From IMG/VR virus record IMGVR_UViG_3300013903_000020: a stretch of DNA of 5,816 bases; one strand, 5' to 3'. Under the pieces are notes generated by a model. The model was not told the DNA's origin. It searched no databases and saw only the letters and a list, made by a program, of their open reading frames with translations. Below are positions 1 to 5,816 of the stretch, piece by piece. Position 1 is the stretch's first letter; each line of letters starts with the position of its first letter. Source of the DNA: a virus (lineage: Duplodnaviria; Heunggongvirae; Uroviricota; Caudoviricetes). The position numbers were made by a program, and so were the translations under genes.

Positions 1-180
1 CGAACCTTCCGTGAGAAATATTCCGAGTCTCCCATTTCAGCTACTGACTGGTACTATAGATTTAGCCGCGATGATGGTAAATGTTGTAATGACCTTGAAT
101 TTTTCAGTTGCACTTGCCTGAAATGCGATCGAGCAGGTGAGTGCGAGGCCCCCCAAGAGCATGGTTACTTTTTTTATTGA
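1..180 (+). CDS. 3'-terminal fragment of an unidentified gene entering from upstream of the window (Cys-rich C-terminus ...CCNDLEFFSCTCLKCDRAGECE...)
   Basis: Frame 1 is open from base 1 to a TGA at 178-180 (59 codons) with protein-like composition and several Cys pairs. There is no in-frame start inside the window, so it is absent from the ORF track. Identity unknown. Confidence 0.3.
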   Translation, partial: RTFREKYSESPISATDWYYRFSRDDGKCCNDLEFFSCTCLKCDRAGECEAPQEHGYFFY

Positions 181-260
181 GCGCATAATTTAGTACCTAT
201 AGTGAGCAAAATTAGAACAAACATAGCAACGGCTATGTTTTATAGCATAACCTATACAAA

Positions 261-544
261 ATGAAAATGATTATCATTAACAACTTTGAGGCCCAAAACA
301 GGGATTAGTTTGTTTCCTGCTGGATGAAAGGACTCTTGGGATAGCACATGCCGCACGAAGAGCAGCATTACATGATGTTTTGTCGAATGAGCTACGAATC
401 CTGATAGAAATACGAAACAAGCTAGCACATGGACAATGGATCTATCCCTTCAATAATGAAGGAAATACTGTGGACCCTGATAAATTTAAATTAATCGATA
501 AAGAAAACTTGCAGTCACTTCAATTCAAATATTCATTAGCATAG
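261..544 (+). pseudogene. Disrupted small ORF with a HEPN-like R-x4-H motif (possible abortive-infection or toxin remnant)
   Basis: ATG at 261 opens a 15-codon frame-3 ORF (MKMIIINNFEAQNRD) ending at TAG 306-308. Frame 2 is open from 290 to TAG 542-544 and encodes ...ELRILIEIRNKLAHGQWIY..., with RNKLAH at 413-430. A single-base change in the A-run near 295-298 would fuse both parts into one ORF of about 97 aa. No Shine-Dalgarno sequence upstream of 261. Confidence 0.3.
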
Positions 545-813
545 CATTTAGCTGATGCTGTACATGATTTGGTTGTAAGTCCTACGACATTCGAACGAGA
601 TTTCGAAAGCCATTTTAAAAATTCTTTTACGTCCGCTCCTCGCTCATAACAGGCATTCACTACATTTGTCTTCATTGGCTATGCAAGTCGTAATACAAGG
701 TGGGGCAAAACTGAGACACATAAGGTCTCTCACAAAGGTCTGCAAGGCCTCACATGTATTGAGATGTTAATAAAATGTAGACTTGTAATTTTGATATAAA
801 TGGTAGATAAAAC

Positions 814-826
814 CTTTCCCCAAAAT
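814..826 (+). promoter_or_regulatory. Isolated copy of the TTCCCCAAAA motif; candidate integrase arm-type site on the far (P-arm) side of the icd segment
   Basis: CTTTCCCCAAAAT at 814-826 matches the three tandem repeats at 1175-1211 and lies about 120 bp upstream of where icd homology starts. Confidence 0.3.
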
Positions 827-911
827 AAAAACGAACGTCAATGAAATCAAACGGTTGAATAAAGTTGATTTTGGCTAATAAAAAAACAATAAAATAATTT
901 TTATCATTAAA

Positions 912-924
912 TATCAATTACTTG
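912..924 (+). promoter_or_regulatory. IHF-consensus-like site (WATCAANNNNTTR) next to the putative attachment core
   Basis: TATCAATTACTTG at 912-924 fits the IHF consensus at every specified position, in an AT-rich context about 20 bp upstream of the icd-homologous segment. Confidence 0.3.
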
Positions 925-943
925 AACTTAATGTTTTTATATA

Positions 944-1108
944 CTGCTGCGCCATATGGGCTGGACTGAAGCCGCAGACCTGATTGTTAAAGGTATGGAA
1001 GGCGCAATCAACGCGAAGACCGTAACCTATGACTTCGAACGTCTGATGGAAGGCGCTAAACTGCTGAAATGTTCAGAGTTTGGTGATGCGATCATCAAGA
1101 ATATGTAA
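944..1108 (+). pseudogene. icd: icd 3'-terminal segment (last about 54 codons of isocitrate dehydrogenase), phage-associated attachment-site copy, not a full gene
   Basis: Translation [54 protein letters not shown] matches the Icd C-terminus as I recall it. The frame is closed by TAA at 929-931 and upstream sequence is AT-rich non-icd DNA, so only the 165-bp tail is present. Confidence 0.85.
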
Positions 1109-3598: not shown

Positions 3599-3880
3599 TC
3601 ACCGTTCCTTAAAGACGCCGTTTAACATGCCGATCGCTAGGCTTAAATGAGTCGGTGTGAATCCCATCAGCGTTACTGTTTCGCGGTGCTTCTTCAGTAC
3701 GCTACGGCAAATGTCATCGACGTTTTTATCCGGAAACTGCTGTCTGGCTTTTTTGATTTCAGAATTAGCCTGACGGGCAATGCTGCGAAGGGCGTTTTCT
3801 TGCTGAGGTGTCACTGAACAAGCCCCATGTCGGCAAGCATAAGCACACAGAATATGAAGCCCGCTGCCAGAAAAATGCAT
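3599..3880 (-). CDS. Small hypothetical early-left protein (93 aa from ATG 3880; 71 aa if started at GTG 3814)
   Basis: ORF in the track. The first 22 residues (MHFSGSGLHILCAYACRHGACS) look non-native and the ATG lacks an SD. A GTG at 3812-3814 overlaps the TGA of a 27-codon upstream ORF (GTGA) and gives VTPQQENALRSIARQ... Confidence 0.5.
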   Translation of the reverse strand: MHFSGSGLHILCAYACRHGACSVTPQQENALRSIARQANSEIKKARQQFPDKNVDDICRSVLKKHRETVTLMGFTPTHLSLAIGMLNGVFKER

Positions 3881-3894
3881 TCAGTGGTTGTCAT
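3811..3894 (-). CDS. Candidate 27-aa hydrophobic peptide (MTTTECIFLAAGFIFCVLMLADMGLVQ), translationally coupled between two small genes
   Basis: ATG at 3892-3894 overlaps the TGA of the 63-aa gene (ATGA) and its own TGA overlaps the GTG at 3814 (GTGA). One predicted hydrophobic helix. Below the ORF-track length threshold; may be spurious. Confidence 0.2.
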   Translation of the reverse strand: MTTTECIFLAAGFIFCVLMLADMGLVQ

Positions 3895-4082
3895 ACCTGG
3901 TCTCTCTCATCTGCTTCTGCTTTCGCCACCATCATTTCCAGCTTTTGTGAAAGGGATGTGGCTAACGTATGAAATTCTTCGTCTGTTTCTACTGGTATTG
4001 GCACAAACCTGACTCCAATTTGAGCAAGGCTATGTGCCATCTCAATACTCGTTCTTAACTCAACAGGAGATGCTTTGTGCAT
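3891..4082 (-). CDS. Small hypothetical protein (63 aa), first gene of the leftward small-gene cluster
   Basis: ATG at 4080-4082 preceded by a strong SD (GGGAGG, 4 nt spacing). Acidic C-terminus and no obvious helix-turn-helix. Confidence 0.6.
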   Translation of the reverse strand: MHKASPVELRTSIEMAHSLAQIGVRFVPIPVETDEEFHTLATSLSQKLEMMVAKAEADERDQV

Positions 4083-4196
4083 ACCGCCTCCCGTTTATTA
4101 TTTATCTTCTCAGCCAGCCGCTGTGCTTTCAGTGGATTTCTGATAACAGAAAGGCCGGGAAATACCCAGCCTCGCTTTGTAACGGAGTGGACGAAA

Positions 4197-4619
4197 GTGA
4201 TCGCGCCTAATCAGGATGTCGTTGCCGCACTCATTGTGAATGAGTATCGAGCACAGGGCGGCGTCACCATCGATTTTCCTGATGATGTCAGTCGGGCACG
4301 CCAGAAGCTGTTCCGCTTCCTCGATAACAAATTCGATTCTGAAAAATACCGAAATAACGTGCGTGAACTGACCCCGGCAATTCTGGCGGTACTACCGCTG
4401 GAATATCGCGGCCACCTGGTTGAGCAGGATAGCTTCATGGCTAGGTTGGCTGAAATGGAAAAGGAACTCAGTGAGGCAAAACAGGCTGTCATTCTCAACG
4501 CACCACGCCACCAGAAATTGAAGGAAATTAGTGAAGGTATTGTGTCGATGTTTCGTGTGGACCCGGATCTGGCTGGTCCATTGATGGCGATGGTTACTAC
4601 CATGCTGGGGGCGATATGA
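4197..4619 (+). CDS. Early regulatory protein in the cII slot (possibly CII/YdaT-like), immediately upstream of the replication initiator
   Basis: The ORF is open from GTG 4077, but that start overlaps the divergent 63-aa gene and the first 40 residues look non-native. GTG 4197 has GGAG 9 nt upstream and gives 140 aa with a coiled-coil-like segment (MARLAEMEKELSEAKQ). Family not verifiable by eye. Confidence 0.5.
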   Translation: MIAPNQDVVAALIVNEYRAQGGVTIDFPDDVSRARQKLFRFLDNKFDSEKYRNNVRELTPAILAVLPLEYRGHLVEQDSFMARLAEMEKELSEAKQAVILNAPRHQKLKEISEGIVSMFRVDPDLAGPLMAMVTTMLGAI

Positions 4620-4705
4620 CAGGTTCAGAAATGGCGAAAGCCGGTCTGCTGGAACAGAACCGACTTTCAGGTGCAAATCGTAACACACTCATTGCGGGAG
4701 GAATT

Positions 4706-5635
4706 ATGGCAAACACTGCTGAGATATTCAATTTTCCAGTGCCGGATGCGGCACAAAAGGAGCCGCGCGTGGCAGATCTCGATGATGGTTATACGCGCAT
4801 TGCAAATGAGTTGCTGGAAGCTGTGATGCTGGCCGGATTAACACAGCACCAGCTTCTGGTCTTTCTGGCTGTCATGCGCAAAACATATGGCTTTAATAAA
4901 AAACTGGATTGGGTTAGCAACGAGCAACTTTCCGAATTAACCGGGATATTGCCGCACAAGTGTTCTGCTGCAAAAAGTGTTCTGGTAAAGCGTGGGATTT
5001 TTATTCAGAGCGGGCGGAATACCGGCATTAATAATGTGGTCAGTGAATGGTCAACATTACCCGAATCAGGTAAGAAAAATAAAGTTTACCTGAAAGAGGT
5101 AAATTTACCTGAATCAGGTAAAAAAAGTTTACCCAAATCAGGTAAAGGCGTTTACCCGAATCAGGTAAACACAAAAGACAAACTAACAAAAGACAATATA
5201 AAACCTTTTTCGTCCGAGAATTCTGGCGAATCCTCTGACCAACCAGAAAACGATCTTCCTGTGGTGAAACCGGATGCTGCAATTCAGAGCGGCAGCAAGT
5301 GGGGGACAGCAGAAGACCTGACCGCCGCAGAGTGGATGTTTGACATGGTGAAGACCATCGCGCCATCAGCCAGAAAACCGAATTTTGCAGGGTGGGCTAA
5401 CGATATCCGCCTGATGCGTGAACGTGACGGACGTAACCACCGCGACATGTGCGTGCTGTTCCGCTGGGCATGCCAGGACAACTTCTGGTCCGGTAACGTG
5501 CTAAGTCCGGCCAAACTCCGCGACAAGTGGACCCAACTCGAAATCAACCGTAACAAGCAACAGGCAGGCATGATAGCCAGAAAACCAAAACTCGACCTGA
5601 CAAACACTGACTGGATTTGCGGGGTGGATTTATGA
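4706..5635 (+). CDS. O: Lambda O-like replication initiator
   Basis: From ATG 4706 (SD GGGAGG at 4696-4701) the N-terminus MANTAEIFNF...VADLDDGYTRIANELLEA...MRKTYGFNK...SEQLSELTG matches the lambda O N-terminal DNA-binding domain as I recall it. An iteron array sits in the central linker. The ORF-track start at 4616 is probably a spurious extension. Confidence 0.9.
   Translation: MANTAEIFNFPVPDAAQKEPRVADLDDGYTRIANELLEAVMLAGLTQHQLLVFLAVMRKTYGFNKKLDWVSNEQLSELTGILPHKCSAAKSVLVKRGIFIQSGRNTGINNVVSEWSTLPESGKKNKVYLKEVNLPESGKKSLPKSGKGVYPNQVNTKDKLTKDNIKPFSSENSGESSDQPENDLPVVKPDAAIQSGSKWGTAEDLTAAEWMFDMVKTIAPSARKPNFAGWANDIRLMRERDGRNHRDMCVLFRWACQDNFWSGNVLSPAKLRDKWTQLEINRNKQQAGMIARKPKLDLTNTDWICGVDL
5057..5210 (+). 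repeat. Origin of replication: five 19-bp iterons (TTTACCyGAATCAGGTAAA, each an internal TTTACC/GGTAAA inverted repeat) followed by an A+T-rich segment
   Basis: Iterons at about 5057-5073, 5085-5103, 5104-5122, 5128-5146 and 5151-5169, then an AT-rich tract at 5170-5210. They lie inside the O-like gene linker, as in ori-lambda. Confidence 0.75.
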
Positions 5636-5816
5636 AAAACATCGCCGCACAGATGGTTAACTTTGACCGTGAGCAGATGCGTCGGATCGCCAACAACATG
5701 CCGGAACAGTACGACGAAAAGCCGCAGGTACAGCAGGTAGCGCAGATCATCAACGGTGTGTTCAGCCAGTTACTGGCAACTTTCCCGGCCGGGCTGGCTA
5801 ACTGCGACCCGAGTGA
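5632..5816 (+). CDS. P: Lambda P-like replication protein (helicase loader), 5' partial, continues beyond the window
   Basis: ATG at 5632 overlaps the O stop (ATGA) with GGGGTGGA upstream. MKNIAAQMVNFDREQMRRIANNMPEQYDEKPQVQQVAQIINGVFSQLLATFPAGLAN closely matches the lambda P N-terminus from memory. Confidence 0.9.
   Translation, partial: MKNIAAQMVNFDREQMRRIANNMPEQYDEKPQVQQVAQIINGVFSQLLATFPAGLANCDPS

What the first reader, a model, noticed from the sequence alone, without database searches (positions are those of the whole stretch)
5057..5210. Five palindromic iterons plus an AT-rich tract inside the O-like gene
The repeats TTTACCyGAATCAGGTAAA are each an inverted repeat (TTTACC / GGTAAA) spaced 19-28 bp apart, followed by 40 bp of A-rich DNA. 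They sit in the linker of the initiator gene and also encode a repetitive peptide (LPESGKK...). This is the ori-lambda design, but with five sites and a distinct sequence that would define this phage's replication specificity.
Basis: partly seen in the sequence, partly recalled or inferred. Interest (0 to 1): 0.45.

Follow-up and report, generated by a model that had tools for sequence, protein, structure and literature searches.

The report
Lambda-type phage replication origin, TTACC iterons
This is the replication origin of a common lambda-like E. coli prophage: five palindromic binding sites for the phage's own initiator protein plus an A-rich melting tract inside the initiator gene, which is the textbook lambda layout with a different site sequence and therefore ordinary.

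Summary
Five copies of a 17-19 bp palindrome (core TTACC-YGAAWCA-GGTAA) lie at 5056-5169, where none is expected by chance. A 76% A+T, A-rich tract follows at 5170-5210. Both sit in the linker of an O-type initiator gene, between its Phage_rep_O domain and a C-terminal half that is 92% identical in protein to lambda O. The start of a lambda-like P gene follows.

Lambda aligns base for base from the A-rich tract onward. Iterons 2-5 are spaced 19-24-23 bp, against lambda's 20-24-23. In 175 related loci, each type of O N-terminal domain has its own palindromic iteron. All 96 loci scored as TTACC-N7 have N-domains 64-100% identical to the window's.

The repeat is conserved as DNA: it is read in two reading frames, and copy-number variants change in in-frame steps of 24 or 48 nt.

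It is not new in kind. The same ori occurs in 2,413 of 5,426 complete E. coli genomes and in about 15 sequenced phages such as Perceval and 4A7. Its nearest described relative is the phage P22 gene 18 ori. I found no record or paper that annotates this iteron class.

In this window the prophage has lost cI, cro and pR, so the origin is probably silent.

The parts
4706..5635 (+). O-type replication initiator gene. The probable true start is ATG 4706 (309 aa). Phage records annotate the upstream in-frame ATG at 4616 (339 aa).
   Evidence: Pfam Phage_rep_O at E = 1e-33. 66% identity to lambda O, starting at M31 of the long ORF. GGAGG lies 7 nt upstream of ATG 4706. The lambda, GZ7 and SEN34 homologues start at the equivalent Met.
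4706..5053 (+). Coding region for the N-terminal DNA-binding domain of O, which determines specificity.
   Evidence: 49% identical to the lambda O N-domain, 83% to GZ7 and 65% to P22 gp18. Residues that discriminate iteron classes cluster at positions 81-88, 91 and 95.
5056..5074 (.). Iteron 1 (ATTACCCGAATCAGGTAAG), an upstream accessory site 29 bp from iteron 2.
   Evidence: It is absent from the four-iteron variants in Pantoea and Providencia, which keep the 19-24-23 spacing.
5085..5103 (.). Iteron 2 (TTTACCTGAAAGAGGTAAA).
5104..5122 (.). Iteron 3 (TTTACCTGAATCAGGTAAA), a perfect 19-bp palindrome.
5128..5146 (.). Iteron 4 (TTTACCCAAATCAGGTAAA).
5151..5169 (.). Iteron 5 (TTTACCCGAATCAGGTAAA), which abuts the A-rich tract.
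5170..5215 (+). A-rich, strand-asymmetric tract (CACAAAAGACAAACTAACAAAAGACAATATAAAACC...), the presumed DNA unwinding element.
   Evidence: 76% A+T. 76% identical to lambda's AT-rich ori tract. CACAAAAGA follows the last iteron in 103 of 105 TTACC-class loci and in most other classes. It is among the least stable 40-mers of the gene, ranking 16 of 890.
5216..5635 (+). Coding region for the C-terminal domain of O, lambda type and presumed to recruit P.
   Evidence: 96.2% DNA identity and 92% protein identity to lambda O. Many lambda-type and Stx phages match only from query position 541, which is window 5156, onward.
5632..5816 (+). Start of a lambda-type P gene (helicase loader), cut off by the end of the window.
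   Evidence: 57 of 61 residues are identical to lambda P. It is annotated as replication protein P in the identical E. coli locus.
4208..4619 (+). 5'-truncated ydaT-like ('cII-like') gene. The deletion junction at 4207/4208 removed cro, cI, pR and the recombination genes.
   Evidence: Homology to phage Perceval starts 134 nt into its gene. RefSeq marks the gene as 'missing N-terminus'. The intact arrangement is visible.

Best explanation
The segment 5056-5215 is the origin of theta replication of a lambda-like (Perceval/4A7, Bievrevirus-type) prophage, and it lies inside the phage's own initiator gene.

Proposed mechanism, by homology with lambda. Dimers of the O protein's N-terminal domain bind the palindromic TTACC-N7-GGTAA iterons. 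Iterons 2-5 form the core four sites, with lambda-like spacing of about two helical turns. Iteron 1 is an upstream accessory site. The resulting nucleoprotein complex stresses and opens the adjacent A-rich tract. The lambda-type C-terminal domain of O recruits P bound to the host DnaB helicase to start replication.

The iteron sequence and the N-domain form a matched specificity pair that differs from lambda's. The A-rich tract and the O C-terminus/P module are shared with lambda.

What is shown here: the anatomy, the homology, the co-variation of domain and iteron, and the DNA-level constraint. What is inferred: O binding, strand opening and P/DnaB recruitment.

In this particular window the prophage has lost cI, cro and pR. 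O, P and ori therefore lack their native promoter and the transcriptional activation that lambda ori requires. The origin is probably intact but silent.
For: Anatomy:
- Five palindromic repeats, against 0 expected by chance.
- They lie immediately downstream of the Phage_rep_O domain and are immediately followed by an A-rich tract.

Homology:
- Lambda aligns base for base from CACAAAAGAC onward.
- DNA identity to lambda steps along the gene: 58% in the N-domain, 45% in the iterons, 76% in the A-rich tract and 96% in the C-terminal half.
- Centre spacing of iterons 2-5 is 19-24-23, against 20-24-23 for lambda's annotated iterons.

Co-variation:
- A sequence-agnostic palindrome detector run on 175 loci gave one dominant half-site per locus.
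- All 96 loci scored as TTACC-N7 have N-domains 64-100% identical to the window's. More distant domains carry TTACC-N5 (P22 type), TTAGC, GTCAC, GTCTC, TCCCY (lambda) or TTCCC.
- The nearest-neighbour domain has the same class in 98 of 104 cases, and 0 of 2000 label permutations reached the observed within-class excess.
- Two loci where the N-domain is fused to an unrelated C-terminus have no iterons.

DNA-level constraint:
- The same motif is read in two reading frames.
- Centre positions that were not used to select the sites are 82-100% conserved.
- The 29-19-24-23 spacing is identical in 85 loci. Copy number varies from 4 to 9. In eight of the eleven listed variant loci the array length stays in frame with an open O reading frame; the 23-nt loss in L014 truncates O, L108 (mod 3 = 0) still reads 324 aa, and L112 is in phase but reads only 64 aa.

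Precedent:
- The P22 record annotates a rep_origin at the equivalent place in gene 18.
- The phage 21 record annotates gpO-binding iterons at the same position in O.
- The literature states that O/gp18-type initiators each bind their own iterons inside their genes (PMC8022706; PMC7466680; PMC3349717).

Silent in situ:
- The deletion junction is at 4207/4208.
- No plus-strand sigma-70-like promoter was found in 3800-5300.
Against: - There is no biochemical or genetic evidence for this iteron class. No record annotates it as an origin, and no paper in the searchable library contains the sequence.
- The N-domain/iteron association could partly reflect physical linkage of adjacent DNA and not functional coupling.
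- The least stable 40-mer of the gene lies in the spacer between iterons 1 and 2 (5068-5107), not in the A-rich tract itself. The exact melting site is therefore not fixed by composition.
- The structure prediction of the N-domain failed (pLDDT 39), so placing the specificity residues on a recognition helix is only suggestive.
- Read-through transcription from an unrecognised promoter in this window cannot be excluded.
Confidence: 0.9

Rival explanations
1. The repeats exist only because the O linker is a repetitive, flexible peptide (LPESGKK...). On this view the DNA palindromes are a by-product of coding and have no cis-acting function.
For: Three of the five copies encode LP[EK]SGK[KG]. The linker is poorly conserved and of variable length across the family.
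Against: Two of the five copies are read in a different frame and encode unrelated peptides (VYLKEVN, VYPNQVN), yet they keep the same DNA motif. The units are palindromic, which coding does not require. Spacing in bp is conserved in 85 loci. Every family member has its own palindrome at this position, followed by the same A-rich tract.
Confidence: 0.02
2. The palindromes act at the RNA level, as hairpins in the O mRNA that regulate translation, stability or ribosome pausing between the two O domains.
For: The plus-strand RNA of 5050-5215 folds much better than shuffles: -40.9 kcal/mol, z = -6.25.
Against: Five copies of one palindrome must give that z-score. The ensemble is diffuse, with an MFE frequency of 0.008 and a centroid of only -7 kcal/mol. 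All copies keep the same arm sequence, whereas a hairpin would only need complementarity. No Rfam family matches; the best hit has E = 0.44 and 16 bits against a 50-bit gathering score.
Confidence: 0.02
3. The sites are bound by O (or another protein) mainly for regulation or exclusion and not for initiation. Examples would be autoregulation of O, titration of O, or a decoy that inhibits superinfecting phages of the same replication type. In this promoterless remnant, that would be the only surviving role.
For: Ectopic lambda iterons, together with oop transcription, inhibit rep-lambda phages (PMC3349717). In the window, ori-O-P are kept intact although the immunity region is deleted, and the same deletion occurs in six complete genomes. 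A pO/oop-like promoter and hairpin are retained upstream.
Against: In intact phages the element occupies the exact position and has the exact architecture of a proven origin. A single chromosomal copy is a weak decoy compared with the multicopy plasmids used in the cited work. Six near-identical genomes may be one clone, so retention is not evidence of selection.
Confidence: 0.05

Closest known systems
ori-lambda with the O/P replication module of phage lambda (also phages 21 and 434 and the Stx phages)
   Same: - The origin lies inside the initiator gene, just after the Phage_rep_O N-domain.
- It has an array of 18-19 bp palindromic iterons. The core four are spaced 19-24-23 bp, against 20-24-23 in lambda.
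- The adjacent A-rich tract is homologous (76% identity).
- The O C-terminal domain is 92% identical, and the first 61 residues of P are 57/61 identical.
- Extra upstream iterons also occur in Stx phages, which have six (PMC7466680).

   Different: - The iteron sequence is TTACC-N7-GGTAA, whereas lambda has TCCCTC-N6-GAGGGA.
- There are five sites, whereas lambda has four.
- The N-terminal domain is only 49% identical, and the differences concentrate in a putative recognition segment at residues 81-95.
- The upstream gene is ydaT-like, where lambda has cII.
This is therefore a different replication-specificity class and not rep-lambda.
Phage P22 origin within gene 18
   Same: - P22 is the nearest named, described relative of the N-domain, at 65% identity.
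- Its iterons use the same TTTACC/GGTAAA half-sites.
- They are followed by the same CACAAAAGAC tract, and the P22-pbi record annotates the region as rep_origin.
   Different: - The P22-type centre is 5 bp (TTTACC-N5-GGTAAA) and the window's is 7 bp. P22 has four rather degenerate copies.
- The gp18 C-terminus differs and pairs with a DnaB-type helicase (gp12), not with P.
Identical or near-identical ori in sequenced phages (Perceval, 4A7, Lambda_4C10, 1W, 3W, PhiR34_1, Turner) and in E. coli prophages
   Same: - The O gene is 97-99% identical and has the same five iterons.
- The integrase is 100% identical to Perceval, 4A7, 1W and 3W.
- The ori segment is found in 2,413 of 5,426 complete E. 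coli genomes, including O157:H7 strains.
   Different: Those phages keep cI, cro and the full ydaT-like gene upstream, which the window prophage has lost. None of the records inspected annotates the origin or the iterons.
Klebsiella phage GZ7 and relatives in Enterobacter, Kluyvera, Pantoea and Providencia
   Same: They have the same TTACC-N7-GGTAA iteron class and spacing pattern, with N-domains 64-89% identical.
   Different: Their O C-terminus is of another type and pairs with DnaC-like loaders. Copy number is 4, 7 or 9 in some of them.

Membership tests
Lambda-type (O-dependent) phage origin, ori-lambda layout | The initiator carries a Phage_rep_O N-terminal DNA-binding domain. | tested here: met
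   Pfam PF04492 at E = 1.1e-33, 116 bits against a 28.7-bit cut-off, covering the full profile 1-95.
Lambda-type (O-dependent) phage origin, ori-lambda layout | An array of at least four ~18-19 bp inverted-repeat iterons lies inside the initiator's own coding sequence, directly after the N-domain. | tested here: met
   Five sites at 5056-5169, against 0 expected by chance. The position is equivalent to lambda's annotated iterons.
Lambda-type (O-dependent) phage origin, ori-lambda layout | Iterons are spaced about two helical turns apart. | tested here: met
   Centres are 19, 24 and 23 bp apart for iterons 2-5, against 20, 24 and 23 in lambda. Iteron 1 lies 29 bp upstream.
Lambda-type (O-dependent) phage origin, ori-lambda layout | An A+T-rich, strand-asymmetric tract immediately flanks the last iteron. 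| tested here: met
   The tract at 5170-5210 is 76% A+T with 23 A against 8 T, and is 76% identical to lambda's tract.
Lambda-type (O-dependent) phage origin, ori-lambda layout | The O C-terminal domain is matched to a downstream helicase-loader gene (P). | tested here: met
   The C-terminal part is 92% identical to lambda O. The P start overlaps the O stop and is 57/61 identical to lambda P. P is cut off by the window end, but it is full length in the identical locus.
Lambda-type (O-dependent) phage origin, ori-lambda layout | Rightward transcription from pR passes through or near ori (transcriptional activation). | tested here: not met
   In this window cro, cI and pR are deleted at junction 4207/4208, and no plus-strand promoter-like site was found in 3800-5300. 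The feature is present in the intact relative Perceval. This concerns activity at this locus and not the identity of the element.
Lambda-type (O-dependent) phage origin, ori-lambda layout | O protein binds the iterons, and the fragment replicates in an O- and P-dependent manner. | not testable with these tools
   This needs EMSA or footprinting and a replicon assay.
rep-lambda specificity class (lambda, 21, 434, Stx phages) | The iteron consensus is ATCCCTCAAAACGAGGGA, recognised by the lambda O N-domain. | tested here: not met
   The window's iterons are TTACC-YGAAWCA-GGTAA, and its N-domain is 49% identical to lambda's.
P22 gene 18 origin class | Half-sites are TTTACC / GGTAAA. | tested here: met
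P22 gene 18 origin class | The half-sites are separated by a 5-bp centre, and the initiator is paired with a DnaB-type helicase (gp12). | tested here: not met
   The window has a 7-bp centre and a lambda-type P partner.

The most novel reading that the evidence does not exclude
The O N-domain family shows a graded series in which the same TTACC/GGTAA half-site is used with a 5-, 6- or 7-bp centre: P22 type, Ferrimonas L114, and the window type. If it holds up, origin specificity in lambdoid phages could evolve by changing dimer geometry (half-site spacing) as well as base contacts.

Separately, the intact but promoterless ori-O-P cassette kept in this cI-less remnant might act as an iteron decoy. 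It might also be an origin that superinfecting phages of the same replication type fire in trans, giving exclusion or local chromosome amplification.
Probability: 0.08. Interest if true: 0.45.

Novelty: new member of a known kind. Interest (0 to 1): 0.2.

Why it matters
The practical value is for annotation. This iteron class marks the replication origin of one of the commonest lambdoid prophage replication modules in E. coli, present in about 44% of complete genomes including O157:H7 strains. None of the records I inspected annotates it.

Knowing the iteron class allows prediction of replication-type incompatibility and cross-activation between co-resident prophages. The class table built here could be used to annotate origins automatically in O-type phages. 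It pairs each N-domain type with its half-site: TTACC-N7, TTACC-N5, TTAGC, GTCAC, GTCTC, TCCCY and TTCCC.

It does not change the understanding of how such origins work.

Tried and rejected
- Structure prediction. AlphaFold2 on the O N-terminal half as a single sequence gave pLDDT 39 and pTM 0.24. That is unusable, so no fold search was run. I ran no further search on an alignment, because the structure would not decide the question.
- Solved structures. A sequence search of the PDB found no relative.
- Rfam. No meaningful hit anywhere in the window.
- RNA reading of the repeats. It was rejected as the main explanation despite z = -6.25, because repeated palindromes force that score and the ensemble is diffuse.
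- Literature. Two exact-substring searches for the iteron sequence found nothing. The classic comparative papers on the ori regions of lambda, phi80 and 82 (late 1970s to early 1980s, recalled from memory) are not in the searchable library. I therefore cannot exclude that this or a near-identical iteron was printed there.
- Phage 21. It was checked because the prophage sits at icd, which I recall as phage 21's attachment site. Phage 21 has lambda's O and lambda's four iterons, so it is not the source of this ori.
- Arm conservation. The arm positions in the frequency matrix were used to select the sites (at most 1 mismatch), so I did not count them as evidence. Only the centre and flank positions are informative. 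The unbiased evidence for the arms comes from the sequence-agnostic detector.
- One script failed on a file path and one Pfam call on a wrong frame. Neither affects the results.

Full report
**1. The observation**

Region 5056-5169 contains five copies of a 19-bp unit:

| Copy | Sequence | Coordinates |
|---|---|---|
| 1 | ATTACCCGAATCAGGTAAG | 5056-5074 |
| 2 | TTTACCTGAAAGAGGTAAA | 5085-5103 |
| 3 | TTTACCTGAATCAGGTAAA | 5104-5122 |
| 4 | TTTACCCAAATCAGGTAAA | 5128-5146 |
| 5 | TTTACCCGAATCAGGTAAA | 5151-5169 |

A degenerate 17-mer for the unit hits these five places and nowhere else in the window. None is expected in 200 dinucleotide-preserving shuffles. Each unit is an inverted repeat, and copy 3 is a perfect palindrome. 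Centre-to-centre spacing is 29, 19, 24, 23 bp.

Directly after copy 5 comes CACAAAAGACAAACTAACAAAAGACAATATAAAACCTTTTT (5170-5210). It is 76% A+T and has 23 A against 8 T on the plus strand. All 40-mers in the O gene with predicted duplex stability weaker than -46 kcal/mol start between 5063 and 5175. The iteron and A-tract block is therefore the most easily melted part of the gene.

- The conserved core is 17 bp, not 19.
- The largest spacing is 29 bp, not 28.
- Only three of the five copies encode the LPESGKK-like peptide.

**2. The host gene and its surroundings**

The repeats lie in an ORF (4616-5635) that matches Pfam Phage_rep_O at E = 1e-33 over residues 51-145. It is 66% identical to lambda O overall. 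The identity is strongly stepped:

| Segment | Identity to lambda |
|---|---|
| N-terminal domain | 49% protein, 58% DNA |
| Iteron array | 45% DNA |
| A-rich tract | 76% DNA |
| C-terminal half | 96% DNA, 92% protein |

The next gene overlaps the O stop codon, and 57 of its first 61 residues are identical to lambda P.

The real O start is probably ATG 4706. A GGAGG lies 7 nt upstream of it, and the lambda, GZ7 and SEN34 proteins start at the equivalent Met.

Upstream lies a ydaT-like gene, which phage records call 'cII'. To the left are xis and int, next to an icd 3' fragment.

The integrase is 100% identical, and the O gene 97-99% identical, to phages Perceval, 4A7, Lambda_4C10, 1W and 3W. 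Homology with Perceval begins only at window 4208, which is 134 nt inside its ydaT-like gene. RefSeq marks that gene 'missing N-terminus' in an identical E. coli locus. Intact relatives have exo, bet, gam, kil, cI and cro in the gap. The window is therefore a Perceval-type prophage that has lost its recombination and immunity regions together with pR.

**3. Comparison with lambda and other phages**

Aligned with lambda's ori (iterons annotated at 39034-39118), the window becomes homologous base for base from CACAAAAGAC onward. The iteron block itself is replaced by a different palindrome.

The same holds for every relative fetched. Each has its own palindromic repeat at this position, followed by the same A-rich tract:

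| Phage | Iteron type | Copies |
|---|---|---|
| lambda, phage 21 | TCCCTC-N6-GAGGGA | 4 |
| PhiR12_1 | TGTCAC-N7-GTGACA | not counted |
| mEpX1 | TGTCTC-N7-GAGACA | not counted |
| SEN34, Eho49, HK446, phiES15 | TTAGC-N7-GCTAA | not counted |
| HK225 (phi80-like) | TTCCCG...CGGGAA | not counted |
| P22 gene 18 (annotated rep_origin) | TTTACC-N5-GGTAAA | 4, degenerate |
| Klebsiella phage GZ7 (N-domain 83% identical) | TTACC-N7-GGTAA | 5 |

The C-terminal part of O varies independently and matches the downstream partner: P, a DnaC-like loader or a DnaB-like helicase.

**4. Co-variation test**

I collected 160 further loci encoding O-like N-domains from viral and genome collections. I then ran a detector that counts any 5-mer followed by its reverse complement, with no prior on the sequence.

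- All 96 loci scored as TTACC-N7 have N-domains 64-100% identical to the window's. They carry three to nine copies.
- P22-type TTACC-N5 goes with domains 53-62% identical to the window's, and TTACC-N6 with a 53% domain.
- The other classes go with domains 38-61% identical.
- Among 104 distinct domains, the nearest neighbour has the same iteron class in 98 cases. Within-class identity averages 80% and between-class identity 50%. None of 2000 label permutations reached that difference.
- Two loci (L098, L101) in which a 69-74% identical N-domain is fused to an unrelated C-terminus have no iterons at all.

Because the iterons are adjacent to the domain's coding sequence, linkage alone would give some association. 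What adds weight is where the mosaic breakpoints fall. Many lambda-type phages match the window only from query position 541, inside the last iteron. The domain and the iterons therefore travel together, while the rest of the gene is exchanged.

Residues that are conserved within classes but differ between them cluster at N-domain positions 81-88, 91 and 95. This is a plausible recognition helix. The only structural model I obtained was too poor to confirm it (pLDDT 39).

**5. The repeat is constrained as DNA**

- The five copies are read in two frames. Offset 2 gives LPESGKK, LPESGKK and LPKSGKG. Offset 1 gives VYLKEVN and VYPNQVN.
- Over 225 iterons from 44 distinct arrays, the centre positions were not used for selection yet are highly conserved (G7 82%, A8 93%, A9 100%, A12 94%). 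The bases just outside the 17-mer are not conserved.
- The 29-19-24-23 spacing is identical in 85 loci.
- The four-iteron variants in Pantoea and Providencia keep exactly 19-24-23. This is the set nearest the A-rich tract, and its spacing is close to lambda's 20-24-23. Iteron 1 therefore looks like an accessory upstream site, comparable to the extra, weakly bound iterons of Stx phages (PMC7466680).
- Arrays with 4, 7 or 9 copies mostly differ from the standard one by 24 or 48 nt. In eight of the eleven listed variant loci the O frame stays open.
- A 23-nt loss in one E. coli strain (L014) truncates O, and RefSeq annotates the gene as frameshifted. L108 departs from the frame rule but stays open, and L112 is in frame but truncated.

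**6. Mechanism**

By homology with lambda, the proposed mechanism has three steps:
- O dimers bind the iterons through the N-terminal domain.
- The complex distorts the DNA and opens the adjacent A-rich tract.
- The C-terminal domain brings in P bound to DnaB.

This mechanism is established for lambda (summarised in PMC3349717 and PMC7466680). Here it is inferred and not shown.

Lambda ori also needs transcription from pR through or near the origin. In this window pR is gone, and no plus-strand promoter-like site was found between 3800 and 5300. The origin is thus probably intact but idle. That is consistent with a repressor-less prophage remnant being tolerated.

**7. Rivals**

- A pure peptide repeat is excluded by the two reading frames and the palindromic symmetry.
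- An RNA element is unlikely. The fold z-score of -6.25 follows from repeating one palindrome. The ensemble is diffuse, all copies keep the same arm sequence, and Rfam has no match.
- A regulatory or decoy role for the sites cannot be excluded for this remnant. It would come in addition to origin function in the intact phages, not replace it.

**8. Novelty**

The layout is the textbook one. The principle that each O/gp18-type initiator has its own iterons inside its gene is stated in the literature (PMC8022706).

This exact ori is present in 2,413 of 5,426 complete E. coli genomes and in about 15 sequenced phages. None of the records I inspected annotates it, and I found no paper containing the sequence. 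The older comparative ori literature is outside the searchable library.

I rate it a new (undescribed) member of a known kind, of low interest. The by-products of modest interest are the class table, the conserved spacing, and the N5/N6/N7 series on one half-site.

Noticed in passing
window 4207/4208 (context 3891-4619): A deletion junction fuses the DUF1317/DUF1382 genes of the left arm directly to codon ~45 of the ydaT-like gene. It removes exo, bet, gam, kil, cI, cro and pR. The same deletion is present at 99.9% identity in six complete E. coli genomes.
   Followed up: yes
window 1-1108: 37-186(-) is the N-terminus of SitA, from the sitABCD iron/manganese transporter island. 956-1108 is an orphan 3' fragment of icd. 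The prophage therefore sits second in a tandem array of elements at the icd attachment site. Window 1-944 does not match the six genomes that share the rest of the window.
   Followed up: partly
window 4703-4731 (-) and 4636-4668 (-): A minus-strand promoter-like site (TTGAAT-17-CATAAT with an upstream TG) has its -10 overlapping the ATG at 4706, the geometry I recall for lambda pO. Downstream of it lies a strong hairpin (-24 kcal/mol, z = -2.4) followed by a weakly U-rich tail. This is a candidate oop-like antisense RNA against the 3' end of the ydaT-like gene. There is no Rfam match.
   Followed up: partly
window 4616-4706: Phage and RefSeq records annotate O from ATG 4616 (339 aa). However, the lambda, GZ7 and SEN34 homologues start at the Met equivalent to ATG 4706, which has GGAGG 7 nt upstream. 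The extra 30 codons overlap the oop-like candidate.
   Followed up: partly
L098 and L101 (Enterobacter sichuanensis, Klebsiella grimontii), about 1230-1500: An O-like N-terminal domain 69-74% identical to the window's is fused to an unrelated C-terminus. No iterons or A-rich tract follow it. This may be a domesticated or repurposed DNA-binding domain.
   Followed up: no
L003 (Escherichia phage D2), 501-1522: The O gene is a chimera. The first ~82 residues are window-type. The rest of the N-domain, the iterons and the C-terminus are lambda-type. The gene is annotated as two CDS. This is either a recombinant with a broken O gene or an assembly artefact.
   Followed up: partly
L097/L083 (Kluyvera), L080, L018, L014: Iteron copy number varies. 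There are nine copies through triplication of the 48-bp iteron 1+2 block, seven through extra 24-bp units, and four through an in-frame 24-bp loss. A 23-bp loss frameshifts O.
   Followed up: yes
L141, L145-L152, L156, L157, L159, L160: Contigs in 'genome' assemblies of unrelated bacteria carry an O N-domain 48.7% identical to the window's, the same value as lambda. These include Pseudomonas, Neobacillus, Oceanobacillus, Leeuwenhoekiella, Ruminococcus albus, Bradyrhizobium, Paenibacillus and Chromatium. They show the same palindrome-detector signature as lambda. Several contigs are ~48.4-48.5 kb long, which most likely reflects lambda DNA contamination of those assemblies.
   Followed up: no
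L114 (Ferrimonas aestuarii), L109 (Trabulsiella guamensis): The same TTACC/GGTAA half-site occurs with a 6-bp centre in Ferrimonas (4 copies). In Trabulsiella it occurs as seven perfect 17-bp palindromes, TTTACCGAATCGGTAAA. The half-site spacing therefore differs among related initiators.
   Followed up: partly
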